DNA from: an uncultured Candidatus Saccharibacteria bacterium
Lineage (GTDB): Bacteria; Patescibacteriota; JAQUNI01
Direction of reading: 5' to 3'
NCBI GenBank assembly: GCA_964555185.1
Contig: CAZKRD010000002.1
Location: forward strand, 120,438 to 184,437
Length of the DNA stretch: 64,000 nt
Of the stretch, positions 13,721 through 61,050 are shown one piece after another. The stretch's first letter is position 1, and every line of letters begins with the position of its first letter. Both the position numbers and the translations under genes were made by a program. A model generated the notes under the pieces. That model ran no database searches. It was not told the DNA's origin and saw only the letters and a list, made by a program, of their open reading frames with translations.

Positions 13721-13827
13721 ACTGGCTATTTAATGTCAAATTTCAAAATCCAAATGACCAAAATTTGGCATTTGACATTTAGATTTGATTTGACATTTAT
13801 CATTTGAAATTTGAAATTTATTAACGG

Positions 13828-17334: not shown

Positions 17335-17458
17335 TTAGTTCAAAGTTTAAAGTTCAAAATTCAAAGTTTAGTTCAAAATTCAAAGTTTTTAGTTTCACAA
17401 CTTTAAACTTTTGACTGTAATTTTTAACTTTTCACTTTGTACTTTGAACTGTTGAATT

Positions 17459-21642: not shown

Positions 21643-22113
21643 ATGAAAAGGTGCTTGATAATTTTTTTGTTTATTTTGATTCTTTTTTCAGGCTGTAAAC
21701 TGCCTCCCCGGCCCTGGGTCAATAAACGGCCAGCTAGCCCTGAAGGAGTGGTCAATGAGTTTTATGAGTTGTATTTTGATTGTCTTCAAAACGAACAGGT
21801 CACAATGCTGGACACCTGTTTAGAGACTCAAATTGGGCGGCCTTATTTTACCAAACAAAGCAGGGAAAAGGTCGCGAAAGTGGTTTCTAACGAACGCGAG
21901 TCTGATTATGATCCCCTGCTCTGCGCCCGCAATATCCCTACTGGTAGTTATAGTGTGGGGATTGCTTCTATTTCCGGGAATTTGGCTGATTTGGTTGTAA
22001 CTTTTAAGTATAGTCAGGAAGAACACAAGGTTCCAATTAAACTTATTCAGAAAAAAGAGATTTGGAACATAGATGATATTGACTGCTCGGCGTTTTTCAA
22101 ACCAAACAATTAG
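21643..22113 (+). CDS. Hypothetical lipoprotein
   Basis: Signal peptide with lipobox LFSGC. I recognise no conserved domain. Confidence 0.4.
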   Translation: MKRCLIIFLFILILFSGCKLPPRPWVNKRPASPEGVVNEFYELYFDCLQNEQVTMLDTCLETQIGRPYFTKQSREKVAKVVSNERESDYDPLLCARNIPTGSYSVGIASISGNLADLVVTFKYSQEEHKVPIKLIQKKEIWNIDDIDCSAFFKPNN

Positions 22114-22124
22114 AAAAATTCAAA

Positions 22125-22970
22125 ATGTTTTCTTCAAAACTTCGTAAAATATTTCGTTTGGGTTTTATCGCGGTTTTTGTTTTAATTTTTCTTTTTGTTG
22201 TTTATCAACACACCAACCCTTTTGGCCGGCCGCGGGTTTATGATTATTCGCTGTCGCGAAAAATAAACCGTTTTATCTCTCCTTTGAGGCCAAAGGAACG
22301 CCTCTCCCGGCACTATAAAGATCAAGCTTCCGATTGGGTTAAGGATCTGAAAGGCCCCTTGATTTATTTTGATCTCGGTCCGGTTTCTGCTGATCAGAAG
22401 TTGACTTTGACCATAAAATACAAAGCCGAAGTTTCTGAAATTAGGTTTGGTGAAGTGCTGTCAGCAGGCAAGGATTTAGATTACAGGGCCCACCCTTTCT
22501 ATAATGCTTTTCTCCAGGACTTGGACTGGGAATATGTTGAGAAAGAAGGTGTGTTTTTGTATCAAAAAGAGAAAATTTTTCCGTCTGTAGACGAGTATTT
22601 AACTAATGTTCCAGAAGACAAGGTTAATGCTGTTTATTTTTTTTCCGACCGCCGGATTAAGAATGCTGAAACCTTAACTCATTTTGAGAATCCCTTGGAA
22701 GAGATAGATTATATTGTTACTATTTATAAAAAGGCTCTTTTGGGCGAAGACGGATGGCTCGAAAACACTTATCAATTTGATATGGCCAATGCTTTTATGC
22801 GGGAAGATATGCTTGCTTACCTTTTTAGTATTCCGGAACTTGAAGGCTTAATTATTGCTTCCAACACGGTGATTCCCAAAGTAACGATCAGTCACATTCA
22901 GGTTATTGTTGAGGAGCCGCCGTCCAAATACTGGGTGCGGGCAAAAAAGTTATTCGGAGTAGACCAATAG
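22125..22970 (+). CDS. Hypothetical N-terminally membrane-anchored protein
   Basis: One N-terminal TM helix and a 250-aa soluble region with no recognisable motifs. It is tightly spaced after the previous gene. Confidence 0.4.
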   Translation: MFSSKLRKIFRLGFIAVFVLIFLFVVYQHTNPFGRPRVYDYSLSRKINRFISPLRPKERLSRHYKDQASDWVKDLKGPLIYFDLGPVSADQKLTLTIKYKAEVSEIRFGEVLSAGKDLDYRAHPFYNAFLQDLDWEYVEKEGVFLYQKEKIFPSVDEYLTNVPEDKVNAVYFFSDRRIKNAETLTHFENPLEEIDYIVTIYKKALLGEDGWLENTYQFDMANAFMREDMLAYLFSIPELEGLIIASNTVIPKVTISHIQVIVEEPPSKYWVRAKKLFGVDQ

Positions 22971-23725: not shown

Positions 23726-24268
23726 TTATTTTTTTGAAAGAAGGCCCGAGAGGCATAAATAATGCGCCCCTATCCCCCAAATAATGTTAGAGGCGGCCAG
23801 TGATAAGATTAACCCGATAATGAATCTCATCTCAAGATGGACCAGATAATAGTCAGTAATAATCAGCCAAGGCAGCTGCAGACAGTAAGCAAATAAAACA
23901 GCCAGGAGCAGAGGTAGTTTTAATCGCACAAACAAGCCGACAAAGAAGCCGAGAATAACATTGCCGACCAAGAGATAGGGATTGCTCATTATGATAGCAG
24001 AGTAGATTGAGCCAACAAGTCCTGACAGGGCTCCGCCCTTGGGTCCGTAAATTGCGGCTGCAATAAAAATCGCTAGTTGGAAAAAATGAATTTTAAAACC
24101 CCAAGGGGTAGAGAGATTGAAAAGACCCAATAAATTAGGCAGGACAATTAGAGACAAAAATAGAATCAAATTTTTTCGATTCCATTTAATATCAAAAGAG
24201 ATTTGAGAGCGGGCCCCACACAAAAGCGAAACTTTTGTGGGGTTCACTTTAATATATTCCGCGTTCAT
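23726..24268 (-). CDS. Small polytopic membrane protein (ECF S-component-like)
   Basis: 180 aa, 5-6 TM helices, glycine-rich helix GPKGGALSGLVGSIYSAI. Confidence 0.35.
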   Translation of the reverse strand: MNAEYIKVNPTKVSLLCGARSQISFDIKWNRKNLILFLSLIVLPNLLGLFNLSTPWGFKIHFFQLAIFIAAAIYGPKGGALSGLVGSIYSAIIMSNPYLLVGNVILGFFVGLFVRLKLPLLLAVLFAYCLQLPWLIITDYYLVHLEMRFIIGLILSLAASNIIWGIGAHYLCLSGLLSKK

Positions 24269-25367: not shown

Positions 25368-25412
25368 TTTAAATTGTTACAGCATTGACCGATCGGTCAG
25401 TTTTGTAACGTT

Positions 25413-25892
25413 TTATTTTTTAAACAAGATTCCTCCTAAGGGATGGTAGGTAAAGACAATAAAACAAACCAGGAAAATTAAGAAGAGGAGAGTGATGATG
25501 AGAATAGAGATGCAATTGGGTTGAACCTTAGCAAGATAGTATTCTAAAATTTGGGCGATGATTATAGCCAGAGCCACGCTCAAAGCGCTCAAGGTGAAGC
25601 CTTGAGGGAAAATAAGCATAAAGATTACAACCAGGATCGGGACGGCTACAATCGCGGCAAGTTTGCCAAAAAAGATATTGTCTTGTTCGCCAAATTTGGG
25701 GATCAGGAATTCAATCAAGCCATAGATCAGCACAGCCCAGAAGGCAATTTTGGCAATTTCAAAAATGCTGCCATTATTTGCGCAGAATAATTTAGTTCCG
25801 CCGCAGTAGCGCAGAAAGGAGACCAGAAAGAGGATAATAATCACAGCGAGGATTTTGTAAAGGAGCAGTTTCTTCCGAGATAGTTTTTTCAT
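25413..25892 (-). CDS. Small polytopic membrane protein
   Basis: 159 aa, 4-5 TM helices. Confidence 0.35.
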   Translation of the reverse strand: MKKLSRKKLLLYKILAVIIILFLVSFLRYCGGTKLFCANNGSIFEIAKIAFWAVLIYGLIEFLIPKFGEQDNIFFGKLAAIVAVPILVVIFMLIFPQGFTLSALSVALAIIIAQILEYYLAKVQPNCISILIITLLFLIFLVCFIVFTYHPLGGILFKK

Positions 25893-27308: not shown

Positions 27309-27470
27309 TTTTTTAGGGATATAATTTTTAATTTCTAATTTTTAATTCTTAATCAATGTTTAATTTTTAATGATTTAATTTTTAAACAAGATAAGTTAGA
27401 AACAATAGAATGTTTAAAAATTAAAGCATTAAAAATTGATTAAAAACTAAAAATTAAGAATTAAAAATTG

Positions 27471-29837: not shown

Positions 29838-29997
29838 ATTAATTTTCAATTTTCAAATCCCAATTTTCAATCAAATCCCAATTTTCAAATAGATTTAATT
29901 TTCAAACCTGCGAAAATGGTTTTGTTTGAAAATTTATTCATTGGTTATTGAAAATTGATTAGTAAATTGGTACTTGAAAATTGAAAATTAACTACTC
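29838..29997. repeat. MITE-like AT-rich intergenic repeat, copy A (inverted relative to copies B and C)
   Basis: The reverse complement begins GAGTAGTTAATTTTCAATTTTCAAGTACCAAT..., which is identical to the start of copy B. Internally it consists of AATTTTCAA/TTGAAAATT words. Confidence 0.7.
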
Positions 29998-31603: not shown

Positions 31604-31778
31604 GAGTAGTTAATTTTCAATTTTCAAGTACCAATGTACTAATCAATTTTCAATTTACAAGTACCAATTTTCAATCAATTTTCAATAACCAATGACTAAA
31701 TGTTCAAACTGTTTGAAAATTAAATCATTGAACCTTAGGATTTGATTGAAAATTGAGATTTGTAAATTGAAAATTAAT
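31604..31778. repeat. MITE-like AT-rich intergenic repeat, copy B
   Basis: About 125 bp are ~95% identical to copy C and form an inverted match to copy A. It lies between the rmlC stop and the NUDIX start. Confidence 0.7.
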
Positions 31779-37093: not shown

Positions 37094-38311
37094 TTACTGA
37101 GTTATTACTCTACCGTTCTTTATTTCCAGATCCAGGTAGTAGGATCCGTCAGCGTTCTGGCCGACCAGTACACTCGAAACATCTTCTGGTGTGAAGATCA
37201 GCCAGTTGCTGGTCTGATCCAGTGGATCAAAGGGAATGTTGGGATTTCTGGCTACGACATTGGCCCGCGTGGTGATGTTGTAGGCGATGTTACTTGCCTG
37301 GACTTTGTAAACACCACCGACTTTTACCATAGGAACCGTGGCCAACCACTCATCGAAATCTCCGGTCATATATAGAACTTCGCCAGTCCTAGGTCCACCA
37401 TACTTGAGGCGAGCCGGATTGATTACGATATCCTGATCATTATTTTCAATCCGGATCAGCCATTCACCATCTGGCGGCTCGACAGGCGGATCGACATACG
37501 GATCTCCGCCACCGATGTTGATATTTACCTGAACGTTACACGATCCTCCGTTCAGATAGTTGCCGCTATTATCCAGGGATCCATCAAAGTCATAGACCGG
37601 GTAAGCAATTGCGCTTCCGGGATCGGTTTCAACCAGGTAACAGGCGGTTGTCCCATTTACCATCGCTCCAATAGTTCTTCTTGAGCCTGCCTGAAAGTGA
37701 AAGCGCATCGTTCGACCTGGCGGATACTTAGTTCCAAATATCCATTTTCCAGTAGATTCATATGACATCTTAACTAACAATCCACCAGTTGCCTGTGACC
37801 ACAGGTACATTTGCGATCCGGATGTGCCTTCGATGGCATATGTTACTTTTCGTAATGGTTTCTCTGGAGCGAGCTGGTGAATGGACCCATTCGGCTTGAA
37901 CATCAAGAGAAACTTTCCCTCGTCCGTATAATTAGCCAGCGAGGTTCCATTTACCATCACATCGAAGAAGGGATAGTCATGGTACACCTTGAGATACCCT
38001 TCTTTACCGGAATAGAAAGTTAGACTTACGTTTGCTAGATCTCCTGGGCTTGCGAATTCTTTCAGGGTGCTCCCATCGGCAAAAATGTCACTTTCCAGAC
38101 AAATTTGGGTAGAACCAGTAGTGCCCGGGGCGAGCGTGTTGCTGTTCGGTACTGCAGCATCTGCCCAGGGTAACGAGACATTGGCGGCGATAGTTCCGGA
38201 CTCGAACAGATTGTTACCTGTGAGACTTGCTAACGGACTGCGAGCTTCTTCGCAACCAACCAGAGCCAGCAGAATAAATATTGTTATGCTTGAGAAAATT
38301 AATTTTCTCAT
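37094..38311 (-). CDS. Secreted lipoprotein of unknown function, encoded in a GC-rich island
   Basis: Signal peptide with lipobox LALVGC. 405 aa, rich in Gly, Asn and Thr. Third-codon-position GC is clearly above that of neighbouring genes. Confidence 0.45.
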   Translation of the reverse strand: MRKLIFSSITIFILLALVGCEEARSPLASLTGNNLFESGTIAANVSLPWADAAVPNSNTLAPGTTGSTQICLESDIFADGSTLKEFASPGDLANVSLTFYSGKEGYLKVYHDYPFFDVMVNGTSLANYTDEGKFLLMFKPNGSIHQLAPEKPLRKVTYAIEGTSGSQMYLWSQATGGLLVKMSYESTGKWIFGTKYPPGRTMRFHFQAGSRRTIGAMVNGTTACYLVETDPGSAIAYPVYDFDGSLDNSGNYLNGGSCNVQVNINIGGGDPYVDPPVEPPDGEWLIRIENNDQDIVINPARLKYGGPRTGEVLYMTGDFDEWLATVPMVKVGGVYKVQASNIAYNITTRANVVARNPNIPFDPLDQTSNWLIFTPEDVSSVLVGQNADGSYYLDLEIKNGRVITQ

Positions 38312-38387: not shown

Positions 38388-38603
38388 TCAGCAGGGGTCT
38401 TCTTCAGCTTCCAGCTTTTCCAGTATTCTTATTTGATTATCTTCCAGGCGGTTCGAAGCTCTCTTCAAATACTGAAGATCAGCCTCGAGATTGCTCGATT
38501 TTCCTCCTCCAAAGCAACAGTAGACTCCGCATCCGGAGAACAGAAGCAAAGCGATTAAGATCAAGCAGATTGCTGCAATTCTCGTTTTCATTACCAACAA
38601 CAC
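38388..38603 (-). CDS. Small lipoprotein with a coiled-coil tail
   Basis: Signal peptide plus lipobox LLFSGC. 71 aa. Confidence 0.3.
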   Translation of the reverse strand: MLLVMKTRIAAICLILIALLLFSGCGVYCCFGGGKSSNLEADLQYLKRASNRLEDNQIRILEKLEAEEDPC

Positions 38604-39403
38604 CTCCTTTCCAGTTTCTGTGACGGGATATAAGCCATTTTGACCAAGATCCGATTTTCATCCTGGTCAACATCAATCCTTCCAGTCTGCAAGTTTTTCT
38701 CTTTGTGCCTCACCCGCGCCCAAGAAACCTCTACGAAACTATTCTTTCGCATCAGTTTCAGATAAAGTCCTGCTTGGGGCCGGTAGGTCCCCTTATAATT
38801 CCGGTTATGATAGTGAACCCAGATAAACTGCGGTCCAATTTCAACAACCTTGTGGGGAGTCAATCCTATTCGCACAACAGCTTCATTATAGACGCTGTCA
38901 AGTCTCAAACCCCTTAATCTTCCAAGATCAGAGGTTGAATAGGCAGCTTCTACAACTACTGGTTTTTGCCTAAAACCCATTTGAGCAGCGAAACGATTTG
39001 AACTGAAGTCCAGGTTATGTTTCGTCTTAACCTCATCCCAGATAAGGATATGAAACCATTTCCAGTAAGAAAAGGCTTCTAGATTAAGATTGTAACCTAG
39101 CAGTTCTTCGCCCTTTCCTTCTTGCAGGCTCTGGGCGCTCCAATACTCATAATCGATTCTTTGCCACATCACTCCGCCATCCAGATTAAGTCTGAGTGGG
39201 ATTTTCCATGGTCGCTTTGTAGCAATACCTATGGCCACGGTGTCCTCGTTGAGGAAATTGTGGGCTACCCCAATCTCCAGCTGCGCTAGATCAGTGAGAG
39301 GAATAGCAACACCTATATTACAAGCAGCTTCATTTTCTTCTGCCTGCGTCGTTAGTCCAGTTAACAAGAACATTATTGCTGTAATAATCAAACATTTTCT
39401 CAT
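38591..39403 (-). CDS. Secreted beta-rich protein, possibly a beta-barrel, in the GC-rich island
   Basis: Signal peptide. Alternating hydrophobic dyads (LEIGVAHNF, VVVEAAYST, LYLKLMRK, ILVKMAYIP). C-terminal aromatic residue (W). Confidence 0.35.
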   Translation of the reverse strand: MRKCLIITAIMFLLTGLTTQAEENEAACNIGVAIPLTDLAQLEIGVAHNFLNEDTVAIGIATKRPWKIPLRLNLDGGVMWQRIDYEYWSAQSLQEGKGEELLGYNLNLEAFSYWKWFHILIWDEVKTKHNLDFSSNRFAAQMGFRQKPVVVEAAYSTSDLGRLRGLRLDSVYNEAVVRIGLTPHKVVEIGPQFIWVHYHNRNYKGTYRPQAGLYLKLMRKNSFVEVSWARVRHKEKNLQTGRIDVDQDENRILVKMAYIPSQKLERRCCW

Positions 39404-42671: not shown

Positions 42672-45001
42672 AACTCAATATTTTTAGTTAAAAATTCCAC
42701 AATTTTTTTTTGTTCTTCTGGCAGATTAAGTTTTACTTTTCTTTTTTCTGTCCGGATTCTGGTTACGGCTTCCTGAATTCTGTTAAATTCTTTTTCTACT
42801 TTTAGATTGCGGTATTCTTTTTGGAATTCTGGCCAAGGGCTGACAATTAAATCCGTCTTTTCCAGTTTTTGGTATACCTCTTCAGTGATAAAAGGAATAA
42901 AGGGGTGGAGCATCCTTAAGCTGTCTTTCAGGACTGTTCTTAAAACAAAATTTACTTTTTTGGACTCTTTTTTTGTTACAGAATTGGACGATCGTCCAGA
43001 TTTGTAACGTTTGCTTTTTTGCTGGTTGTAAATTCTCTGTTTTGCGATTTCTAAATACCAATCACAGAGTTCATTCCAGAAAAAGCGGTAGAGTCTTCTT
43101 GCCGCGCGGGCAACCTGATAGGTTTCTAAGGAATCACTAACTTTTTTGATTGTATAATGCAGGCGAGAAAGAATCCACTGATCGCTTGGGTGGCTTGAAG
43201 GTTTTTTTGGTTTTTGTGCCGGTTTTGTGTTGTGAATAACAAATTTAGACGCATTATGGACTTTGGTTGTGAAGTTGCGGCCGGCTTTAATCGCGTCTTC
43301 CATTGCCTGTTTGCTCATTGCGATATCGCGGCCCGGGTAGGCCATTCGGGCAAGGGCGAAGCGCAAGGAGTCGGCAGAATATTTTTGAATCATCAATAAA
43401 GGATCCACGCCGTTGTTTAGCGATTTGCTCATCTTGCGCCCTTGTTCGTCGCGGAGCGTGCCATGGATAAAGACCGTTTTAAAAGGCGCTCTCTTTCCGA
43501 ATTTGATTCCCAAGATAATCATTCGGCAGATCCAAAGATAAAGAATACCCGGGGCAGTGATCATCAGGTCAGAGGGGTAATATTTTTTAAGATCAGCGCT
43601 TTTGCGGTCAGGCCAGCCCAAGGCTGAAAGAGGCCAGAGGCCTGATGAAAACCAGGTATCTAAAACATCGGTTTCTTGTTTGATTTTGCTCCCGCCGCAT
43701 TTTGGGCATTTTTTTGGTTTTTTAGCACTCACAATCGGCGGGCATTTTTTCTCTTTGCAATAATAGACTGGCATTGGATGGCCCCAGACAAGCTGGCGGG
43801 AGATGCACCAGTCATGGATATTGGAAAGCCAGAGAAGAGCTTGTTTCCCATACCTTTCCGGTAGGAATTTAACATCGCCTTTTTTGATTGCTGTAATTGC
43901 AGGTTTTGATAACCCTTTCATTTTTACAAACCATTGTTTCGAGATTTGGGGTTCAATAATACTCTTACAACGTTCACAAAAAGCAACCGAATGTTTAATC
44001 TCTTCTGTCTTTTTAAGGTAGCCTTGTTTTTGAAGATCATTAATCACAATCTGCCGTGCTTGATTGACAGATAGACCATTGTATTTCTCTGGCACATTGA
44101 TCATTTTGCCATCGCGATTAATCACTAGAGGTTTTTCCAAGTTATGGCGCTCTCCAATTTCATAGTCAGTTAGATCATGAGCAGGTGTTACCTTAACCGC
44201 CCCTGTGCCGAATTTAGGATCAACCACTTGGTCTGTCACAATCGGGATTTTGCGGTTAACTAGAGGCAGAGTCACTTTTTCGCCAACCAGATCTTTGTAA
44301 CGTTTATCATCTGGATGGACAGCTACAGCTGTATCTCCTAGCATAGTCTCTGGTCTTGTGGTCGCGACTGTAATTTTTTGATCCTCGTTTAAGGGATAGT
44401 CAATATAGTAGAGTTTGCCCTTTTGTTCTTTGTATTCTAATTCTAAGTCTGTGATCGCGGTGTTGCATTTGGGGCACCAGTGGACAATGTAGCGGCCGCG
44501 ATAAATCAGTTTGTCACGGTAAAGGCGGATAAATTCTTCCTGCACTGCCTTGCATGGACCGGGATCCAAAGTAAAGGTTTTGCGGGACCAGTCAGCTGAC
44601 TCGCCCAAGGCTTTTGATTGCTCTAGAATCTTTTTTTCATAAATCCGCGCCCACTTCCAAATGTATTTTAGAAATTCCTTCCGCCCCAGATCCTCATGTG
44701 TTTTACTCTCTTCTTTTTGGAGTTTTTTCTCCATTGTTCCCTGCATTTGAATACCGGCATGGTCAACACCGGGCAGCCACAGGGTGTCAAAACCCTGCAT
44801 TCTTTTGGCGCGAATTAAGATATCCGTGATCGTGTGCTGCAGAGCATGGCCTAGATGGAGTTCGCCGGTTAGGTTTGGCGGCGGCATAATCATCACAAAA
44901 GGCTTTTTTTTGGATCGGTTATTGGCGCGAAAATAATTTTTTCGGTGCCAATAATCATACCACCTTTTTTCAGTTTTAGAAGGATTATATTTTTTATCCA
45001 T
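42668..45001 (-). CDS. valS: Valyl-tRNA synthetase
   Basis: HIGH-like PPPNLTGELHLGHA, KMSKS, 777 aa with an editing domain. Confidence 0.9.
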   Translation of the reverse strand: MDKKYNPSKTEKRWYDYWHRKNYFRANNRSKKKPFVMIMPPPNLTGELHLGHALQHTITDILIRAKRMQGFDTLWLPGVDHAGIQMQGTMEKKLQKEESKTHEDLGRKEFLKYIWKWARIYEKKILEQSKALGESADWSRKTFTLDPGPCKAVQEEFIRLYRDKLIYRGRYIVHWCPKCNTAITDLELEYKEQKGKLYYIDYPLNEDQKITVATTRPETMLGDTAVAVHPDDKRYKDLVGEKVTLPLVNRKIPIVTDQVVDPKFGTGAVKVTPAHDLTDYEIGERHNLEKPLVINRDGKMINVPEKYNGLSVNQARQIVINDLQKQGYLKKTEEIKHSVAFCERCKSIIEPQISKQWFVKMKGLSKPAITAIKKGDVKFLPERYGKQALLWLSNIHDWCISRQLVWGHPMPVYYCKEKKCPPIVSAKKPKKCPKCGGSKIKQETDVLDTWFSSGLWPLSALGWPDRKSADLKKYYPSDLMITAPGILYLWICRMIILGIKFGKRAPFKTVFIHGTLRDEQGRKMSKSLNNGVDPLLMIQKYSADSLRFALARMAYPGRDIAMSKQAMEDAIKAGRNFTTKVHNASKFVIHNTKPAQKPKKPSSHPSDQWILSRLHYTIKKVSDSLETYQVARAARRLYRFFWNELCDWYLEIAKQRIYNQQKSKRYKSGRSSNSVTKKESKKVNFVLRTVLKDSLRMLHPFIPFITEEVYQKLEKTDLIVSPWPEFQKEYRNLKVEKEFNRIQEAVTRIRTEKRKVKLNLPEEQKKIVEFLTKNIEL

Positions 45002-51023: not shown

Positions 51024-51230
51024 TAGTTAATTTTCAATTTTCAAGTACCAATGTACTAATCAATTTTCAATTTTCAAGTACCAATTTTCAATCAATTTTC
51101 AATAACCAATAACTAAATGTTCAAACTGTTTGAAAATTAAATCTATTTGAACCTTCGTCCCGAGCTCAGGTCGAGGGAAATTATGATTTGATTGAACATT
51201 GGTCCTTGTAAATTGGTAATTCAAACAATA
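51024..51230. repeat. MITE-like AT-rich intergenic repeat, copy C, carrying a nested GC-rich hairpin insertion
   Basis: It shares ~125 bp with copy B. The element is interrupted at 51152..51180 by CGTCCCGAGCTCAGGTCGAGGGAAATTA and resumes with GATTTGATTGAA.... Confidence 0.7.
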
Positions 51231-54064: not shown

Positions 54065-54157
54065 AACTTTAATGCAAAAATCAAAATGTAATTCAGAATG
54101 TAAAAATAATTTTGCATTTTACATTTTCATTTTGACCTTTGCATTTTGATTTTTGCA

Positions 54158-54985
54158 TTATTTCTGGCATTTTGAACAAAAGTGGGCTGATCTATTATTG
54201 ATTTTGATCCGTTTAATCGTTGTTTTGCATTTTTTACAAGGGTCTCCTGTCCGGTGATAGACCCTAAGGTGCAGTTGGTGCTTTCCCTTCTTGCCATAAG
54301 CTTCGCGGTACCACTGATCAGAAGTGCCGTGGTGCTTGATCGCCTCGCGCAATACTTTTTTGATTGCTCGATAGAGACTTTGTAATTTTGCAGGCGGGAT
54401 TTTACCAGTCGGGGTTTCGGGATGGATCTTGGCCAGAAACAGCGCTTCGTCAGAATAGATATTGCCGATCCCGCTTATTTTAGCTTGATCAAGAAGCAGG
54501 GTTTTGATTTTTGCGGTTTTCCCTTTGAGGATTTCTTTGAATTTTTGAAAGGTGAATTTAGGCTCCAGAGGATCAGGCCCTAGTTTTTGAATCTTGCCGA
54601 AATCTTTTTCTAACTCCTTTTTAGGGAGAAGCCAGATTTGGCCGAATTTGCGCAGATCATTAAAACGTAGTTCGCAAAGTTTCCCTAAAGAGAACTTAGC
54701 ATGATTATATTTATCCGGCAGATCAGAGGGCTTTCGGATAAAGAGCTGACCGGTCAGCCGTAAATGAATGGCGAGGATTAGTCCGCCTGATAATTCCAAG
54801 AGGATAATTTTTCCCTTTCTTCTAACCTTAATGATTTTTTGATTCTGAATTGTTTGTTGAAATTTTTTCAAGCTATGCCCGACCAGCATTTTGGGCGTGT
54901 CTGAAGAAAAGGCGGTAATCGTTTTGCCGCGGATCCCTCTTTGGAGTTGTCTTACGATGGTTTCGACTTCAGGGAGTTCAGGCAT
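54158..54985 (-). CDS. mutM: Formamidopyrimidine-DNA glycosylase
   Basis: MPELPEVE N-terminus (catalytic Pro2) and C-terminal zinc finger CKKCKTTIKRI...SAHFCSKCQ. I moved the start to this Met. The track ORF is 25 codons longer. Confidence 0.75.
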   Translation of the reverse strand: MPELPEVETIVRQLQRGIRGKTITAFSSDTPKMLVGHSLKKFQQTIQNQKIIKVRRKGKIILLELSGGLILAIHLRLTGQLFIRKPSDLPDKYNHAKFSLGKLCELRFNDLRKFGQIWLLPKKELEKDFGKIQKLGPDPLEPKFTFQKFKEILKGKTAKIKTLLLDQAKISGIGNIYSDEALFLAKIHPETPTGKIPPAKLQSLYRAIKKVLREAIKHHGTSDQWYREAYGKKGKHQLHLRVYHRTGDPCKKCKTTIKRIKINNRSAHFCSKCQK

Positions 54986-55151: not shown

Positions 55152-56606
55152 CTAATTTTGCCCGATCATTACCGCGATCGGCTGGAGGCGGGCGATTTTT
55201 TTAGTGATTTTACGTTCGACCAGAGCATCAATCACCAGCTCAATATCTTTATAGGCCATCGGCGCTTCGTCCAAGACCTCAAGGACAGATCTAAAGTTGG
55301 TTAAGATATTACCCAGTTTTTTTTCAAACTCTTGGGGCTTGACTTCTCTTTTTGCCTGTGTGCGGGAGAGCCTTCTTCCCGCGCCGTGATTGACAGAATA
55401 GAAAGTCTCTTGAGCATTTTCGCCGGCAACCAGGATGTAAGAAGGGGTGGCCATTGAACCAGGGACAAGCGCGGGGTGGCCGGTTTCTTGATAGATTTTT
55501 GGATTTTGAGGGTGATTTGCCGGCAGAGCCCTAGTTGCTCCTTTGCGGTGGATTAAATACTCTCTGCCCGAAGAGTCTTTTTCAAATTTGGCAATGTTAT
55601 GAGCAACATCGTAGAGCAGTTCCATACCTAAAGCTTCAGGGTCTTTACCGAACATTTCGGCAAAGGCATCTCTGACATCGTGCATAATTAAGTGGCGGTT
55701 ACAGAAAGCATAATTAACCGCTGCTGCCATTGCTTTGAAATAGTTTTGACCCGCTTCGGATCGAATCGGTACGGCAGCTAAGCCCTTGGTCGGGATATAG
55801 AGACCTTGTTTTTGAGCTTCTTCAAACAACGTCTGCATATAATCATGGCCGATTTGATGACCAAAGCCGCGGGAACCACAGTGAATCATTACGCAAATAT
55901 TGTTTTGGGAAAGACCAAAGGTTGAAGCCGCTTTTTCATTATATATTTTTTCGATTACTTGAATATCAATGAAATGATTGCCGCCGCCTAAAGTACTTAA
56001 TTGATTTTCACCTCGCCTTTGCGCCCGGTCAGAAACAGCGCCTAAATCCGCGCCTGCCATGATTCCCCTCTCCTCACAATGTTCAATATCAGAAGGTTGA
56101 CCATAGCCTTTTTGGACCAAAAGAGGTACACCTTTTTTTACAACATCAGCTAAGCTAATGTCTCGTAGTTTGCCCCTTACCCCAGATTTACCTGTGCCCA
56201 GAGGGATCCGTTTTTCAATCTTACGCATTAGCTTTCTTAATTTCGGCTTGTCTATTTTTTTATTCTTTCCTTGGAATTTTGAAAGCGGGATCCCTGTTTT
56301 GACAAGTCTCACCCCGCAATTAATATCATAACCAACCGCGCCTGCTGAAATTAATCCTTTTTCAGGATCCATTGCCATCACCCCGCCAATCGGCAAGCCA
56401 AAACCAACGTGGATATCAGGGAGGCCGATTACGGGCTCAATTACGCCCTGAAGAGAAGCGGCAGCGGCCAGTTGATCTAAAGACTCGTCTTCCTCCAGCT
56501 CCTCTTTTAGTTCGTTATTTAAATATAAAACCGCGTCAACCAGCATTTGGCCGTGTTTTTTAATCCGGAAGCGATTTTTGCCGTCAGGCAAAAGATTGTA
56601 TCGCAT
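55152..56606 (-). CDS. rtcB: RNA-splicing ligase RtcB
   Basis: ...GYDINCGVR..., NHAGAGR-like (VNHGAGRR), HNIA. I set the start at MRYNLLPDG, two nt after the ferredoxin stop. Confidence 0.85.
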   Translation of the reverse strand: MRYNLLPDGKNRFRIKKHGQMLVDAVLYLNNELKEELEEDESLDQLAAAASLQGVIEPVIGLPDIHVGFGLPIGGVMAMDPEKGLISAGAVGYDINCGVRLVKTGIPLSKFQGKNKKIDKPKLRKLMRKIEKRIPLGTGKSGVRGKLRDISLADVVKKGVPLLVQKGYGQPSDIEHCEERGIMAGADLGAVSDRAQRRGENQLSTLGGGNHFIDIQVIEKIYNEKAASTFGLSQNNICVMIHCGSRGFGHQIGHDYMQTLFEEAQKQGLYIPTKGLAAVPIRSEAGQNYFKAMAAAVNYAFCNRHLIMHDVRDAFAEMFGKDPEALGMELLYDVAHNIAKFEKDSSGREYLIHRKGATRALPANHPQNPKIYQETGHPALVPGSMATPSYILVAGENAQETFYSVNHGAGRRLSRTQAKREVKPQEFEKKLGNILTNFRSVLEVLDEAPMAYKDIELVIDALVERKITKKIARLQPIAVMIGQN

Positions 56607-56608
56607 AT

Positions 56609-56797
56609 TTACTTTTTGATTTTGATTGCTTCTACCGGGCAGGCTTGGGCCGCGTCCTGGACATCGCACCCTTCTGCTCCTTCTGGCTTTAACACCTTTG
56701 CTTTGTAGGTATCCTGGTTTAGTTTAAAAACTTGAGGGCACATTGTCTCGCAAGTATTACAGCCAATACATTTTTCTTGATCAATGGTTATTTTCAC
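56609..56797 (-). CDS. Small 4Fe-4S ferredoxin
   Basis: CIGCNTCETMCP ... CP. 62 aa. Confidence 0.65.
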   Translation of the reverse strand: MKITIDQEKCIGCNTCETMCPQVFKLNQDTYKAKVLKPEGAEGCDVQDAAQACPVEAIKIKK

Positions 56798-57029: not shown

Positions 57030-57145
57030 AGTAGCATTTTTTAATTTCCAATTTCCAATTCTCAATTTCCAATGAATTTTTAATGTTTAAATTTTCAATA
57101 ACAATAAAATGTTTAAAAATTCATTCATTAAAAATTGAATCAAAA

Positions 57146-57601: not shown

Positions 57602-58687
57602 TTAAAACAATTCTCGCGCTAAATCCCAGTAAGCATCATTCCCCTCTTCTTTTTGCCAAGACCACCATTCTACGCCCCAGAGATAAACTTCGGTAAAACC
57701 GCATTGCTTGCTGTAATCTATAATTTCCTGAAATTTTTCCGGGGTCATTGTTTTGGCGATGATTTCGGGGGCTAAGGTTTTAATATCTCCGTGGACCCAG
57801 GGTTCAGCCTGTTGTTCTGAAACAATCACGGGTTTATTGCCGAAAAGAAGGCGCATCAAAGCAACCTTGCGCTGATAAAAAATCGCCGGGATGCGATATT
57901 TCATATAGCCCAAAACCCGGTTATAGACATATTTATATAAAGAAGTGCCAAGGATATCAGCGCGGCGGAATTCGCCGACCCACAAAGAAAGCTCGCCTGA
58001 TGAAGTGAGCATAATCGGTCGGTTATCTAAGGCCCGTACTAATTCGATTTCTGAATCAAAAAATTCCTTGTCTAATTTTGGACAGTTGCCAAAAGAGTGG
58101 AAAAAGAAAGGTTCATTCTCTACTTGCCAGATTTTAATTCCTTCTTTATCTCTATATCGTTCAACAGTTTTTTGAATGATTTCTAAAAGTTCAGTTTGCC
58201 TTTTTTCTTCTTCCAGATTTTTTGCCCATTCTGGGATATGGCATTCGGGCCAGCGCGGCAGTTTTTGGCCCAGAGCCAGAATGATTTCCGCGTTCGCTTT
58301 CTCTGCTTCTTCAATCTGCCAGTCCAATTCAGAAAAATCATAGTTATCTTTTTCTGTCTCGATTAAATCCCAGTAAGCAACTAATCTAAGTTTTTTTACT
58401 TTAAGATCGTGGAGGATCTCCCGGAAGACTTGTTGGGGATCCTGATCATAACCGCGCACGCTTTTAGTAGAAAAAGTAACACCGTACTCAACCTGTTCTG
58501 TTTGTTTTGGAATCCCAATTACAAAATAACCAAAACCCAGAGCCAAGAAACTGAATATTGTTGAGAGAGTTATTATTAAGCAAATTTTTAGGTAACCAAA
58601 AAACAGAATTTTGCATTTTGAATTTTCATTTTGATTTTCCCTCGACCTGAGGCTCAGGACTCGAAGGTTGATTTTTGATTTTTGCAT
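57602..58687 (-). CDS. Membrane-anchored glycoside hydrolase, clan GH-A ((beta/alpha)8)
   Basis: The catalytic acid/base motif WQVENEP. One N-terminal TM helix. The first ~25 codons are encoded by a GC-hairpin repeat and CAAAATG words. The start overlaps the EamA stop (TAATG). Confidence 0.5.
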   Translation of the reverse strand: MQKSKINLRVLSLRSRENQNENSKCKILFFGYLKICLIITLSTIFSFLALGFGYFVIGIPKQTEQVEYGVTFSTKSVRGYDQDPQQVFREILHDLKVKKLRLVAYWDLIETEKDNYDFSELDWQIEEAEKANAEIILALGQKLPRWPECHIPEWAKNLEEEKRQTELLEIIQKTVERYRDKEGIKIWQVENEPFFFHSFGNCPKLDKEFFDSEIELVRALDNRPIMLTSSGELSLWVGEFRRADILGTSLYKYVYNRVLGYMKYRIPAIFYQRKVALMRLLFGNKPVIVSEQQAEPWVHGDIKTLAPEIIAKTMTPEKFQEIIDYSKQCGFTEVYLWGVEWWSWQKEEGNDAYWDLARELF

Positions 58688-59580
58688 TATTTGAAGGCCA
58701 GAATCGCTAATCCCAAAGTAATCAGAACCACGGCAATTACTTTTTGCGCGCGGTGGGTTTTAAATTCCTCGGCAAATAATTTAGGCAGTTTTCTTGCTAA
58801 GATTAGAGCAATCAGGATCAAAAAGACGTATTGAATTCCTTGAAGGGCGTTGACGATGGTTACTGATGACGAGAAAATCGCGTAATTCAACATTATAAAA
58901 GAAAGGGCAGCGACTGCGCGTACGCCCAAGTAGCCCACTCCTACTTTCAAGCCCACTTTTTTTGGCGCTTCTTTGATTTGTTTGCGAAAGTGAGGCAAAG
59001 CAAAAATAGCAAGGGCGGCAATAATACTGCCGATCCTGGTCCAGATAAAGCCAGCCCAAAAAGTTCCATTAGTATAGACAAATTTTGTCAAAACAAAAGA
59101 GGCGGCAAAAAAGAAAGCGGCTAAAATGCCCCAGAAGATTCCTTTGCCCGAGAAGATATTATGGCGCCGCCGCTCGGAAGTAATCAAGATGCCGCCTAAG
59201 ATTAATAGGTAAAAAGCAATAAATTGGTTGCCGCTTAACTTTTCTCCCAAAAAAGAATAACTTAAAACAAAAGTAAAGATTGGGATCATTGTGCCGACAA
59301 GCGGGATAACTCGGGAAGTAGGATTTTTTTCAATCGCAAGGTAAAAGAAGACCAAAGCAATCGTAAACAGAATCCCTGCTAAAAGAGCGGTGATAATTGT
59401 TTTGATTTGGGGAGTGGCGGTTGCCAGTGGAATCAGCAAGAGAACAAAAATACTCAAGATTCCATTGTAGAAAGCATAGACCACTGGCGCTTTTACCTCG
59501 CGGGACAAAATATATTTGTCCGCGATAAAAACTAAAGCGGCAAGCAGGTGGGCACAGATGATAAAGAAAAGCCAAGACAT
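58687..59580 (-). CDS. EamA/DMT-family transporter
   Basis: 10 TM helices, 297 aa. Confidence 0.6.
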   Translation of the reverse strand: MSWLFFIICAHLLAALVFIADKYILSREVKAPVVYAFYNGILSIFVLLLIPLATATPQIKTIITALLAGILFTIALVFFYLAIEKNPTSRVIPLVGTMIPIFTFVLSYSFLGEKLSGNQFIAFYLLILGGILITSERRRHNIFSGKGIFWGILAAFFFAASFVLTKFVYTNGTFWAGFIWTRIGSIIAALAIFALPHFRKQIKEAPKKVGLKVGVGYLGVRAVAALSFIMLNYAIFSSSVTIVNALQGIQYVFLILIALILARKLPKLFAEEFKTHRAQKVIAVVLITLGLAILAFK

Positions 59581-59673
59581 GAATTTAAATCAAAAGTCAA
59601 AATGCAAAAATCAAAATGAAAATGTAAAATGTAAAATTTCCTGACGTAAATTATTATTTGGAATTTGTAATTT

Positions 59674-60900
59674 TTATTCGGAATTTATTTGGAATTTGTA
59701 ATTTGTAATTTGGAATTTTTCAATAATCTCCTTATATCTATAAGCCGATTCTCTGGGGGTTCTTTTTTGGGTTTTGTAGTCAATATCCACAAGTCCAAAG
59801 CGCGGAGCAAAGCCGTATGCCCATTCAAAGTTATCGAGTAGTGACCAATGGAAATAACCGTGAACTGGAACATTTTGAGCAAGAGCGCGGCTGATCGCCT
59901 CAATATGTTGTGTTATAAATCGGGGCCGCAGACTATCTTGTTTATCCGCTATTCCATTTTCCGTGATATAGATCGGCAGATTGTATTTTTTTAATTTGAG
60001 GAGAGTTTGATATAGACCTTCCGGATAAATTTCCCAGCCAAGATCAGAAACATTTTGACTTTCGTTCTCGGTTTGATAAAAGGGGCGGTGGAGTGTTGTC
60101 CGGATAAAATCGCGATAGTAATAATTTACTCCCAGGAAGTCGTGATAACCTTTAGTTTTTTTGTAAAACAGATGATTCCAGAATTTGTCAGCCAAGCGGC
60201 AGGCAATTTTATCGAAAAAAGATTTGGCCGGTTCAAAGTAAATAAAGTTTTTAGCAATGCCGACTTGAGCTTCAGGCAGGAGGGCGTGGATTTTGAGGTA
60301 AGCTTTTTTGTGGGATTTGACTAGATTTTTCAATGCCCTTTTAAATTTATGGAAGCTTTTTTCTCCTGGCGGCCATTTCCCCTGCAGATAACCAAATCCA
60401 GCATAGACATTAGGTTCATTAATCGTAATCCAGAGATCAACATAGTCAGAGAATCTTTTGACTGCGGTTTCAACAAAGCGCGTGAAGTAATATCTGCTTT
60501 TGCGGTTTAAAAATCCTCCTTTTTGAGAGAACCAGAGAGGCAGAGTAAAGTGATGCAGAGTAAGCATAACCCTCAAGTCCCGTTCCCGCAGGGCCTTTAA
60601 AACAGCAATGTAGTGATTTATTTCTTTTTCAGAAAATTTTCCTTCTTCTGGTTCAATCCTGCTCCATTCTAAAGACAGCCGATGCGTGTTGTGGCCTAGA
60701 CTTTTTGCCAAATCAAAATCCTCTCGGAATAAATTATAATGGTTGCAGGCTTCCCCTGAAGATTCTAGATTTTTGTGAGTCTGTTCCCATTCCCACCAGT
60801 CATTGTTGCGGTTATTCCCTTCAACTTGATGAGCGGAAGTCGCCGCGCCCCAGAGGAAATTTGAAGGAAAGTTTTTTAATTTTTCTAACATATTGTTCAA
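59674..60900 (-). CDS. Glycoside hydrolase family 1 beta-glucosidase
   Basis: FLWGAATSAHQVEG, TINEP (acid/base), ITENG (nucleophile). 408 aa. Confidence 0.85.
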   Translation of the reverse strand: MNNMLEKLKNFPSNFLWGAATSAHQVEGNNRNNDWWEWEQTHKNLESSGEACNHYNLFREDFDLAKSLGHNTHRLSLEWSRIEPEEGKFSEKEINHYIAVLKALRERDLRVMLTLHHFTLPLWFSQKGGFLNRKSRYYFTRFVETAVKRFSDYVDLWITINEPNVYAGFGYLQGKWPPGEKSFHKFKRALKNLVKSHKKAYLKIHALLPEAQVGIAKNFIYFEPAKSFFDKIACRLADKFWNHLFYKKTKGYHDFLGVNYYYRDFIRTTLHRPFYQTENESQNVSDLGWEIYPEGLYQTLLKLKKYNLPIYITENGIADKQDSLRPRFITQHIEAISRALAQNVPVHGYFHWSLLDNFEWAYGFAPRFGLVDIDYKTQKRTPRESAYRYKEIIEKFQITNYKFQINSE

Positions 60901-61050
60901 AATCTTTAATTTTTAATTTGTAATTTTTATTTAATTTCCCTCGACCTAAGGACTTCGGCTGAGCTCAGTCGAACGCCCTCGGGACGAAGGTTTATTTTTT
61001 ATTGTTTAGAAATTAAGAATTGCAAATTCAACAAAAATTAAAAATTACCC

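What the first reader, a model, noticed from the sequence alone, without database searches (positions are those of the whole stretch)
51152..51180. A small GC-rich hairpin element (CCCTCGACCT...GAGCTC...GGGACGAAGG) in three places, once nested inside the MITE-like element and once providing a gene's 5' codons
Three ~30-55-bp GC-rich islands in otherwise AT-rich spacers share their termini (TTTCCCTCGACCT ... CGAAGGT): 51152-51180 (reverse orientation), 58639-58667 and 60938-60990. Copy 51152-51180 interrupts MITE-like copy C exactly where copy B reads TTGAACCTTAGGATTTG. That indicates a secondary insertion into an existing element. Copy 58639-58667 lies inside the 5' end of the membrane-anchored glycoside hydrolase ORF and encodes NLRVLSLRSRE. 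The termini are near-complementary (CCCTCG / CGAAGG) around a central GAGCTC palindrome. This resembles REP-like miniature elements.
Basis: seen in the sequence. Interest (0 to 1): 0.5.

Follow-up and report, generated by a model that had tools for sequence, protein, structure and literature searches.

The report
Tiny mobile hairpin inside CPR genes
The three GC-rich hairpins are copies of a 26-27-base insertion element that occurs with near-identical sequence in many candidate-phyla-radiation (Patescibacteria) bacteria, most often in frame inside essential genes, so it ranks among the smallest apparently mobile DNA elements found and resembles something so far described only in cyanobacteria.

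Summary
Three copies share the ends AACCTTCG...AGGTCGAGGGAAA: 51150-51180 (+), 58636-58669 (-) and 60935-60992 (-). Collection scans found about 110 further copies in diverse Patescibacteria assemblies, and 80 of 125 pattern matches are the exact 31-mer.

The unit is a 26-nt imperfect palindrome with a net gain of 27 nt. A filled and an empty TopA allele differ by exactly 27 nt. Variants add 30 nt or 54 nt (a self-nested form).

Of 80 distinct sites, 57 lie inside long ORFs (DnaK, GyrA, TopA, PolA, tRNA synthetases, UvrA/D, NusA and others). All 57 are in sense orientation, all three frames are used, and the host frame is preserved. Intergenic copies point both ways.

Most copies sit in tandem heptamer arrays (xTCAAAA)n. 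The window shows three contexts: inside an array-built MITE-like element, inside the array at the 5' end of a glycoside hydrolase ORF, and nested in itself.

The closest analogues are cyanobacterial small dispersed repeats (SDR) and Rickettsia palindromic elements. It is not REP-like in location or copy number. The mobilising machinery is unknown. No prior description was found.

The parts
51150..51180 (+). Copy 1: canonical 31-mer AACCTTCGTCCCGAGCTCAGGTCGAGGGAAA (26-nt palindromic core 51152-51177). It is intergenic and antisense to the neighbouring minus-strand genes, at the centre of MITE-like copy C.
   Evidence: It is identical to the commonest sequence in other genomes (80 of 125 pattern matches).
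58636..58669 (-). Copy 2: 34-mer variant AACCTTCGAGTCCTGAGCCTCAGGTCGAGGGAAA (3 nt longer than the 31-mer). It is in sense orientation in codons 7-18 of the glycoside hydrolase ORF.
   Evidence: -15 kcal/mol, z -2.7; the same variant at 7 other places.
60935..60992 (-). Copy 3: 58-mer, in which a 27-nt related copy sits in the central GAG|CTC of another copy. It is intergenic, 43 nt upstream of the GH1 beta-glucosidase ATG (60891-60893), in sense orientation.
   Evidence: -28.9 kcal/mol, z -4.5; 58-mers also in L061, L094, L103, L104.
51024..51221 (.). MITE-like element copy C, built from inverted tandem heptamer arrays (AATTTTC / ATTGAAA). It hosts copy 1.
   Evidence: (D5, 98% to copy B).
31607..31775 (.). 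MITE-like element copy B, which lacks the hairpin. The site corresponding to the insertion is 31728-31744.
58608..58635 (-). Heptamer array 3' of copy 2 in gene orientation (ATCAAAA TGAAAAT TCAAAA TGCAAAA). It encodes NQNENSKCK.
58670..58694 (-). Heptamer array 5' of copy 2 in gene orientation. It contains the ATG at 58685-58687, which overlaps the EamA stop (TAATG).
   Evidence: A near-identical 25-mer lies at 54139-54163 (D18).
57602..58687 (-). Membrane-anchored glycoside hydrolase ORF (361 aa). Its only in-frame canonical start that keeps the whole transmembrane anchor lies upstream of copy 2.
   Evidence: Public gene calls of 314 aa (P0001) and 361 aa (P0241) both exist.
60901..60934 (-). 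AT-rich heptamer array between copy 3 and the GH1 start.
   Evidence: 60901-60929, AATTTTT x4.1.

Best explanation
The three islands are copies of a very small non-autonomous insertion element of Patescibacteria (CPR bacteria). The unit is a 26-nt imperfect palindrome, CCTTCGTCCCGAGCTCAGGTCGAGGG. It enters DNA with a net gain of 27 nt (core plus one duplicated flanking base). It goes preferentially into tandem heptamer arrays such as (xTCAAAA)n and into short A-rich runs. It also enters the loops of array-built MITE-like elements and the centre of its own copies.

The gain is a multiple of three (27 nt, or 30 and 54 nt in derivatives) and the sense strand has no stop codon in any frame. Copies that land in sense orientation inside genes are therefore read through as a 9-10 (or 18) residue hydrophilic loop: PSSRAQVEG, STFVPSSGRG or NLRPELRSRE. 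Antisense copies inside genes are removed by selection.

In the window, copy 1 is nested in a MITE-like element. Copy 2 lies in the array that now forms the translated 5' end of the glycoside hydrolase gene. Copy 3 is a self-nested form in an intergenic array.

Shown: the family, its boundaries, the 27-nt filled/empty difference, the intragenic in-frame location and the contexts. Inferred: that it is copied by a trans-acting machinery that recognises the hairpin, that it spreads between CPR lineages by horizontal transfer, and that the copies inside genes are actually translated.
For: Family and spread:
- The genome and metagenome scans found the pattern at 125 places, about 110 of them true members, in assemblies labelled Yanofsky-, Levy-, Specht-, Magasanikii-, Paceibacterota, Parcubacteria and Saccharibacteria.
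- 80 of the 125 matches are the identical 31-mer.

Insertion size:
- TopA of L001 (filled) and L113 (empty) differ by exactly 27 nt inside the same array.
- The TopA loop is 20 aa with the array only and 29 aa with the element in several lineages.
- DnaK of L063 shows an 8-residue gap (query KPSSRAQVEGKKEEK against E. coli KGTGNRT) at the insert. PheS of L033 shows gaps at both of its copies against T. thermophilus PheS.
- MITE copies B and C in the window differ by a single 27-nt gap.

Intragenic, sense, all frames:
- 57 of 80 distinct sites lie in ORFs of 150 aa or more, with frames 30:17:12 and none antisense within an ORF body.
- 20 host ORFs were confirmed by Pfam as TopA, GyrA, PolA, RNase HII, GatA, UvrD, UvrA, PheS, PheT, DnaK, class I tRNA synthetases, ribonucleotide reductase, Mfd, a Mur ligase, NusA and GT4 glycosyltransferases.
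- By my own reading of the flanking open segments, intergenic copies point both ways, roughly 8 sense and 9 antisense.

Contexts:
- The flank consensus is xTCAAAAxTC|E|xTCAAAAxTC.
- 22 of 25 array-embedded copies have the same unit type on both sides.
- Copies found by the core alone obey N|core|N in other arrays, AAGCTAT and GTTTCAA.
- Self-nested 58-mers occur at several loci.

Decay and recurrence:
- Degenerate copies sit at the same TopA site in L114 and L115.
- The same loop was hit in frames 0, 1 and 2 with different array types (L090, L001, L114).

Window glycoside hydrolase:
- The only in-frame starts are ATG 58687, a TTG in the middle of the transmembrane helix, and a GTG after it. 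Homologues all keep a full N-terminal anchor.
Against: - No mobilising gene was identified. 40 window ORFs scanned with Pfam include no transposase, integrase or reverse transcriptase. Nothing was found in viral contigs. Phage and plasmid collections gave only chance-level partial matches.
- Mobility is inferred from comparative patterns, not observed.
- The collection scans required exact A-flanked termini. This biases the sample toward intact, A-flanked copies and inflates the apparent sequence conservation.
- Orthologous copies with 17-29% diverged flanks are still 31/31 identical (L001/L032, L036/L076). A purely neutral parasite does not predict this.
- The window's B/C comparison places the boundary at AACC|TTCG. 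This conflicts with the N|core|N rule, so B may be a deletion derivative rather than an empty site.
- Translation through the element is not shown by any protein or RNA data. One public gene call starts the glycoside hydrolase downstream of the element (P0001).
Confidence: 0.72

Rival explanations
1. There is no dedicated enzyme. The hairpin hitch-hikes between heptamer arrays by ectopic gene conversion or replication template switching. It moves between lineages by natural transformation, using the short array homology on both sides.
For: About 60% of copies are embedded in xTCAAAA arrays with the array phase preserved. The unit type is the same on both sides in 22 of 25 cases. Near-identical composites such as AAATTCAAAATTC-E-TTCAAAATTCAAAATT occur in unrelated genes. 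Orthologous sites carry different array types (L036 TTC, L076 ATC). DprA, a transformation protein, sits next to topA in L113-L115. Natural competence of Saccharibacteria is what I recall from PMC10633639; that paper was listed but not read here.
Against: The same 26-nt boundaries occur where there is no array homology: GyrA, DnaK, ribonucleotide reductase, the MITE loop, the centre of the element itself, and arrays of unrelated unit sequence. Such precise ends in non-homologous contexts fit site-defined insertion better than homology-driven conversion.
Confidence: 0.2
2. The sequence is a selected functional motif, either an RNA hairpin in mRNAs or a DNA site bound by a conserved CPR factor. 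On this view it is not a parasite, and its sequence identity across lineages reflects purifying selection.
For: The 31-mer is identical across assemblies labelled as different CPR lineages. It is also identical in orthologous sites whose flanks are 17-29% diverged. The strand AACCUUCG...CGAGGG folds better as RNA because of a G-U pair.
Against: There are only 1-4 pattern-matching copies per genome. Host genes and positions are unrelated. All three frames are used, so there is no common peptide. Intergenic copies have either orientation. Decayed copies at the same TopA site and empty alleles are tolerated. The 31-mer's fold energy is no better than that of shuffles (z -1.0). There is no Rfam match. 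The apparent conservation is partly an ascertainment effect.
Confidence: 0.1
3. It is a REP/REPIN-type element mobilised by a RAYT (Y1 HUH) transposase.
For: It is a short imperfect palindrome, it shows no multi-base target duplication, and it has a defined orientation. These features suit hairpin-recognising single-strand transposases (sequence inspection).
Against: It is mostly intragenic rather than extragenic. Copy number is low. It has no conserved GTAG-like head. It does not occur as inverted doublets; tandem copies are direct, 34 nt apart. No Y1 transposase was seen among 40 window ORFs. Genome-wide RAYT presence was not tested.
Confidence: 0.05
4. The hairpins are intrinsic terminators or mRNA-stabilising stem-loops that happen to share sequence.
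For: They are GC-rich stems in AT-rich spacers. On the plus strand, copies 2 and 3 are followed by T-rich sequence.
Against: None of the three is called terminator-like on either strand. On the transcribed minus strand they are followed by A-rich sequence, not U-rich. Most family members lie in the middle of essential ORFs, where a terminator would be lethal.
Confidence: 0.03
5. The insert is not translated. It is removed from the mRNA as a mini-intron (for example by an endonuclease plus the RtcB ligase encoded at 55152-56669), or it is skipped by ribosomal bypassing, as with the byp elements of yeast mitochondria.
For: It is a GC hairpin in an AT-rich coding context flanked by direct repeats. 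That superficially resembles take-off and landing sites. RtcB is encoded in the window (Pfam).
Against: Every intragenic copy keeps the host frame. Net lengths are multiples of three (27, 30, 54, and three tandem 34-nt repeats giving 102). The sense strand has no stops in any frame. An excised or bypassed insert would not need these constraints. The predicted fold has no bulge-helix-bulge motif.
Confidence: 0.03

Closest known systems
Small dispersed repeats (SDR1-8) of Nostocaceae cyanobacteria (Elhai et al. 2008, Genome Res 18:1484; cited in PMC3116915 and PMC5861425; details from my memory of the abstract, because the paper could not be opened)
   Same: Size class (21-27 nt against 26-27 nt here) and hairpin-forming sequence. 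Copies are near-identical. They sit embedded in tandem heptamer repeats, inside miniature transposon-like elements, and nested in copies of themselves. All three contexts occur in this window. The mobilising mechanism is unknown for both.
   Different: The host lineage is unrelated (Patescibacteria). [quoted passage not shown] I had no SDR sequences to compare. Here most copies are inside protein-coding genes and are frame-neutral. The same sequence is shared across assemblies labelled as several CPR lineages, at low copy number per genome.
Rickettsia palindromic elements (RPE; Ogata et al. 2000/2002, summarised in PMC10969869)
   Same: Palindromic selfish repeats inserted in frame into unrelated housekeeping genes and apparently tolerated as extra surface peptide segments.
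   Different: RPEs are about 100-150 bp and confined to Rickettsia. [quoted passage not shown] The CPR element is 27 nt, is used in all three frames, is tied to heptamer arrays, and is spread over a very broad bacterial radiation.
Yeast mitochondrial GC clusters and byp elements (from my own knowledge)
   Same: Short GC-rich hairpins dispersed in AT-rich genomes, occasionally inside coding sequence, with nested and derivative forms.
   Different: They are organellar and of different sequence. Byp elements are skipped by the ribosome, whereas the frame-preserving design here argues for read-through.
REP/REPIN elements with RAYT transposases (PMC3116915)
   Same: Short imperfect palindromes that are non-autonomous and dispersed.
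   Different: REPs are extragenic, number in the hundreds per genome, often form inverted doublets, and are linked to a RAYT gene. Of these features, all except the untested RAYT link fail here.

Membership tests
SDR-type very small mobile repeats | Unit of about 21-27 nt with hairpin potential and near-identical dispersed copies | tested here: met
   The core is a 26-nt imperfect palindrome with a net gain of 27 nt. 80 of 125 pattern matches are identical.
SDR-type very small mobile repeats | Embedded in tandem heptamer repeats, in miniature transposon-like elements, and nested in itself | tested here: met
   The flank consensus is a heptamer array. Copy 1 is in a MITE-like element. 58-mers are self-nested.
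SDR-type very small mobile repeats | Sequence or lineage relationship to the Nostocaceae SDR1-8 families | not testable with these tools
The hosts here are Patescibacteria, so at best this is an analogue.
REP / REPIN | Extragenic location | tested here: not met
   57 of 80 distinct sites lie inside ORFs of 150 aa or more. 20 hosts were confirmed by Pfam.
REP / REPIN | High copy number per genome, often as inverted doublets | tested here: not met
   There are 3 copies in 64 kb and 1-4 pattern-matching copies per species-representative genome. Multi-copy sites are direct tandems 34 nt apart.
REP / REPIN | Associated RAYT (Y1 transposase) gene | not tested
   Only 40 window ORFs were scanned, with none found. 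No whole genome was examined.
MITE | Terminal inverted repeats with a target-site duplication of 2 bp or more, size of tens to hundreds of bp, derived from an IS | tested here: not met
   The whole unit is a 26-nt palindrome. The filled/empty comparison gives +27 nt, which is at most a 1-nt duplication. No parent IS is known.
Rickettsia palindromic elements | In-frame insertion in unrelated protein-coding genes | tested here: met
Rickettsia palindromic elements | About 100-150 bp element encoding a conserved peptide, in Rickettsia | tested here: not met
   The element is 27 nt, uses three frames (30:17:12), and its hosts are CPR bacteria.
Intrinsic terminator | GC stem-loop followed by a U-run on the transcribed strand | tested here: not met
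   None of the three copies was called. The tails on the gene strand are A-rich.
Rfam RNA families / tRNA | Match to a curated covariance model | tested here: not met
   There were no gathering-level hits in the window and only chance-level hits around copies 2 and 3. No tRNA was found.

The most novel reading that the evidence does not exclude
A 26-nt hairpin is an actively propagating element, among the smallest mobile elements known. It uses an as yet unknown insertion mechanism (precise ends, one-base duplication, preference for heptamer arrays). It crosses between CPR lineages, and together with the heptamer arrays it is a general source of new surface loops in essential CPR proteins. Its maintenance at identical sequence in diverged orthologous sites would then reflect repeated re-copying, a homing-like process.
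Probability: 0.35. Interest if true: 0.85.

Novelty: new variant of a known kind. Interest (0 to 1): 0.72.

Why it matters
Elements of this size class have, to my knowledge, been described only in one cyanobacterial family, and how they move has never been worked out. Three things would follow from a second, unrelated and much more widely distributed example.

- The phenomenon is general rather than a cyanobacterial oddity.
- Hundreds of natural insertion sites, with filled, empty and decayed alleles, become available for inferring the mechanism.
- Part of the unexplained loop insertions in the proteins of ultra-small CPR bacteria would be explained.

It also matters for annotation. Gene callers mis-place starts, as with the glycoside hydrolase here. 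Alignments of marker proteins such as DnaK, GyrA and tRNA synthetases carry non-homologous inserts.

Tried and rejected
- **Rfam and tRNA scans.** Rfam at gathering and permissive thresholds and a tRNA scan gave nothing relevant.
- **Terminator scan.** None of the three copies was called.
- **Viral contigs, phages, plasmids.** The exact 26-mer is absent from viral contigs. Phage and plasmid records gave only chance-level partial matches.
- **IleRS comparison (L014 vs L024).** At 40% identity it was too diverged for a clean empty site. It did reveal a different hairpin at the same position and an array without a hairpin.
- **Syntenic relative L111.** The spacers are unalignable, so there is no empty site for window copies 2 and 3.
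- **Footprint search.** AACCTTAGG-like sequences are not enriched in the window.
- **Protein search with the three frame peptides.** The 42-aa query then found no candidate, although such proteins exist (for example P0121, whose TopA loop reads QPSSRAQVEGK). I treat this as an index limitation.
- **Elhai 2008.** The paper could not be opened, so the SDR comparison rests on my memory of its abstract plus two citing papers.
- **Literature searches.** Searches for the sequence, the peptides, and CPR combined with MITE, REP, heptamer or RPE terms found no prior description.
- **A-run target.** The restored A-run of 4 or more after removing 27 nt is true by construction, because the element was searched with AA...AAA ends. 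I do not use it as evidence.
- **CRISPR repeat, attC site, DNA uptake sequence.** Rejected by sequence inspection and my knowledge of those families, not by a dedicated tool run. Tandem copies are separated by only 3 nt. There are no attC core sites. The density is far too low for an uptake sequence.

Full report
**1. Observation**

The three GC-rich islands are real. Read in one orientation, all begin AACCTTCG and end AGGTCGAGGGAAA.
- Copy 1 is 51150-51180 on the plus strand: AACCTTCGTCCCGAGCTCAGGTCGAGGGAAA.
- Copy 2 is 58636-58669 on the minus strand, a 34-mer.
- Copy 3 is 60935-60992 on the minus strand, a 58-mer.

The 13-nt end occurs exactly three times in the window. The gapped pattern never occurred in 100 shuffles.

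All neighbouring genes are on the minus strand. Copies 2 and 3 are therefore sense to local transcription and copy 1 is antisense.

MITE-like copy C (51024-51221) differs from copy B (31607-31775) by one 27-nt gap that holds copy 1. The gap falls at B's TTGAACCTTAGGATTTG.

As RNA, the strand AACCUUCG...CGAGGG folds somewhat better because of a G-U pair. The 31-mer is no better than shuffles (z -1.0). The 34-mer reaches z -2.7 and the 58-mer z -4.5. Rfam, tRNA and terminator scans are negative.

**2. The same sequence elsewhere**

I scanned one genome per species with TTTCCCTCGACCT-N(7-37)-CGAAGGTT. This gave 33 loci. Six were chance matches in GC-rich genomes. The rest were Patescibacteria assemblies labelled Yanofsky-, Levy-, Specht-, Magasanikii-, Paceibacterota, Parcubacteria and Saccharibacteria, plus two assemblies labelled Gammaproteobacteria and Aminicenantia whose labels I did not verify.

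The metagenome scan added 77 loci, largely from groundwater and sediment.

Of 125 pattern matches, 80 are the identical 31-mer. A 34-mer variant with 3 extra nt occurs 12 or more times. Several 58-mers are a 27-nt related copy inserted in the central GAG|CTC of another copy.

One metagenome locus (L048) has the same flanks as window copy 1, and another (L104) is identical to the DNA around copy 3. The source contig is a 355-kb scaffold (ENA ERZ23486238). The nearest named relative of the glycoside hydrolase is a Doudnabacteria protein at 65% identity.

**3. Where the copies sit**

I oriented all copies as AACC...GGGAAA and removed duplicates. Of 80 distinct sites, 57 lie inside open frames of 150 aa or more on the same strand. 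All three frames are used:
- frame 1, (Q/K)PSSRAQVEGK, 30 sites;
- frame 2, STFVPSSGRGK, 17 sites;
- frame 0, NLRPELRSRE, 12 sites.

Conserved host motifs continue in the same frame on both sides.

Pfam confirms 20 hosts:
- DNA replication, repair and transcription: TopA, GyrA, PolA (twice), RNase HII, UvrD, UvrA, Mfd, NusA and ribonucleotide reductase;
- translation: PheS (two copies in one gene), PheT, three class I tRNA synthetases and GatA;
- other: DnaK, a Mur ligase, two GT4 glycosyltransferases and a TPR protein.

Against solved structures, the insert appears as an extra loop. In DnaK the query reads ...GLDKPSSRAQVEGKKEEKIVVYD... where E. coli reads ...GLDKGTG--------NRTIAVYD.... Both PheS copies fall at gaps relative to T. 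thermophilus PheS.

The two apparent antisense-in-ORF cases (L046, L053) lie at the extreme 5' end of the open segment. They are most likely upstream of the start. By my own reading of the flanking open segments, intergenic copies point either way, about 8 sense and 9 antisense.

The antisense strand has a TGA in one frame, and antisense arrays (GATTTTT)n bring TGA into every frame. The all-sense pattern inside genes is therefore best explained by selection after insertion, not by a transcription-coupled mechanism.

**4. Boundaries and size**

The TopA loop between AWHL and RIVFHEIT was compared in 117 CPR homologues.
- It is 11-16 aa in the basal state.
- It is 20 aa when it holds only a heptamer array (for example NEIKNQNEKIKNVE).
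- It is 29 aa when it holds the array plus the element.

At the DNA level, L001 reads GAAATCAAAAATCAA[CCTTCGTCCCGAGCTCAGGTCGAGGGA]AAATCAAAA. The array-only allele L113 reads GAAATCAAAAATCAAAATGAAAA. The segment from WHL to HEIT is 120 nt in L001 and 93 nt in L113, a difference of exactly 27 nt.

Copies found by the core alone, without requiring A-rich ends, sit in other arrays as AAG|core|GCT (AAGCTAT arrays) and CAAG|core|GTTTC (GTTTCAA arrays). In each case removing the core plus one base restores the array phase.

The unit is therefore the 26-nt imperfect palindrome plus one duplicated base. Derivatives add 30 nt or 54 nt. In MltG, three direct tandem copies 34 nt apart add 102 nt. All of these are multiples of three.

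The flank consensus of the A-type copies is xTCAAAAxTC|E|xTCAAAAxTC. When both sides are such arrays, the unit type matches in 22 of 25 cases. Near-identical composites occur in unrelated genes. The array plus hairpin may therefore sometimes move together.

The window itself has 25 or more period-7 arrays in its spacers, often as inverted pairs that make up the MITE-like elements.

**5. Dynamics**

Several patterns point to recurrent insertion and ordinary decay.
- The same TopA loop carries the element in frame 1 with ATC arrays (L001, L032), in frame 0 with TTC arrays (L090), and in frame 2 as a degenerate copy (L114).
- A copy with five transitions sits at the same site in L115.
- The loop also holds several unrelated insert families.

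One pattern does not fit simple decay. Orthologous filled sites whose flanks are 17-29% diverged keep the 31-mer identical (L001/L032, L036/L076). This could reflect re-insertion, conversion from other copies, or selection. The exact-termini search biases the sample toward intact copies, so I leave this open.

Among roughly 810 kb of fetched DNA, secondary copies not selected by the pattern are few and include decayed ones.

**6. The window's three copies**

*Copy 1* is a 27-nt extra segment at the centre of an array-built MITE-like element, between the hydrogenase-associated 269-aa gene and hypC. The gap alignment leaves AACC in copy B. This conflicts with the N|core|N rule, so B may be a deletion derivative rather than a true empty site. 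An AACCTTAGG footprint is not enriched.

*Copy 2* lies in an array that starts exactly at the EamA stop (TAATG).
- The glycoside hydrolase frame has only three canonical starts: ATG 58687, a TTG at codon 48 in the middle of the transmembrane helix, and a GTG at codon 77.
- Twelve homologues all start M(x)KK followed by a complete anchor.
- The 85%-identical syntenic relative L111 has its own ATG and a different spacer with other small hairpins.
- The most likely reading is that the array plus element replaced the ancestral start region and is translated as MQKSKI-NLRVLSLRSRE-NQNENSKCK ahead of the anchor.
- Public gene calls disagree: 314 aa (P0001) against 361 aa (P0241).

*Copy 3* is the self-nested 58-mer, 43 nt upstream of the GH1 ATG.

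**7. Comparison with known systems**

The closest functional analogue is the cyanobacterial small dispersed repeats. These are 21-27 nt, embedded in tandem heptamers or miniature transposons, nested in themselves, and suspected to be the smallest mobile elements. This description comes from my memory of Elhai et al. 2008. The reference is confirmed in PMC3116915 and PMC5861425. [quoted passage not shown]

The in-frame colonisation of housekeeping genes parallels Rickettsia palindromic elements (PMC10969869). [quoted passage not shown]

REP/REPIN, MITE, terminator, CRISPR, attC and uptake-sequence readings fail on defining features; the last three were rejected by inspection only. See the membership table.

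No transposase, integrase or reverse transcriptase was found among 40 window ORFs. The window holds mainly a polysaccharide-synthesis cluster and a group 3-like [NiFe] hydrogenase operon. Viral, phage and plasmid collections lack the element. Literature searches found no earlier description.

**8. Verdict**

It is a frame-neutral 26-27-nt hairpin insertion element shared across Patescibacteria, analogous to SDRs and RPEs but distinct from both. The descriptive anatomy is well supported. Mobility, horizontal spread, translation and the mobilising machinery are inferred.

Noticed in passing
window, e.g. 13763-13819, 16004-16033, 17337-17450, 27322-27469, 29841-29989, 31612-31775, 51029-51221, 54109-54159, 57043-57073, 58608-58694, 59587-59718, 60901-60929: Intergenic spacers are dominated by tandem heptamer arrays (25 or more period-7 arrays). 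They often form inverted pairs that make up the MITE-like elements. This is the CPR counterpart of cyanobacterial STRR heptamers.
   Followed up: partly
window 58668-58692 and 54139-54163: The same 25-mer (TTGATTTTTGATTTTTGCATTATTT, 92% identical) follows two different genes. In both places the array begins exactly at the upstream stop codon with a TAATG overlap (D18).
   Followed up: partly
window 25374-25421 and 42973-43020: A second hairpin pair (TTGTTACAG...CGATCG...TGTAACG followed by a T-run, 83% identical) looks terminator-like (D19).
   Followed up: no
window 57602-58687 (-): One public gene call for the glycoside hydrolase (P0001, 314 aa) starts at a TTG inside the transmembrane helix. 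Another (P0241, 361 aa) uses ATG 58687. Homologues argue for the longer form or a non-canonical start.
   Followed up: yes
L111:3936-4000 (syntenic relative, EamA-GH spacer): In place of the window's array plus element there are two other small GC hairpins (CCACCCTTTCTGGGTGG and TCACCCGGTATGGGTGA). This suggests further hairpin families at the same kind of site.
   Followed up: no
TopA loop between AWHL and RIVFHEIT in P0121-P0240: The loop ranges from 11 to 48 aa in 117 CPR homologues. It holds several other recurring inserts (NSKSQ...NSKQI types from TTCAAAA arrays, SSKQSLRDAAGQA, KSPKYPAAGRE). It is an insertion hot spot.
   Followed up: partly
L014 and L024 (IleRS), about residues 580-770: Both CPR isoleucyl-tRNA synthetases carry an internal segment with an RHGE motif that resembles a histidine-phosphatase domain.
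   Followed up: no
L024 CDS, IleRS residues about 1106-1125 and about 800: At the site where L014 has the canonical element, L024 has a different GC segment (CCTGCCCCGAGCCGAGTCGAGGGG) inside AAAGTTA arrays. Elsewhere in the same gene there is a hairpin-less (ATCAAAA)4 array encoding NQKSKIKNQ.
   Followed up: partly
L099:6778-6876, L101:4645-4743, L004, L030, L106: Two or three direct tandem copies lie 34 nt apart. In L004 and L101 the host ORF has an MltG-like motif (YLFPDTYRV). Three copies (102 nt) restore the frame and are read in frames 1, 2 and 0 in turn. The copy number differs between assemblies of the same locus.
   Followed up: partly
window 1-47000: This is a large polysaccharide-synthesis cluster. 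It includes several GT2/GT4 glycosyltransferases, rhamnose-pathway enzymes, three radical-SAM proteins, Wzy- and Wzz-like proteins and asparagine synthase. Six ORFs have no Pfam match (21643-22110, 22125-22967, 23729-24268, 25416-25892, 37097-38311, 38594-39403).
   Followed up: no
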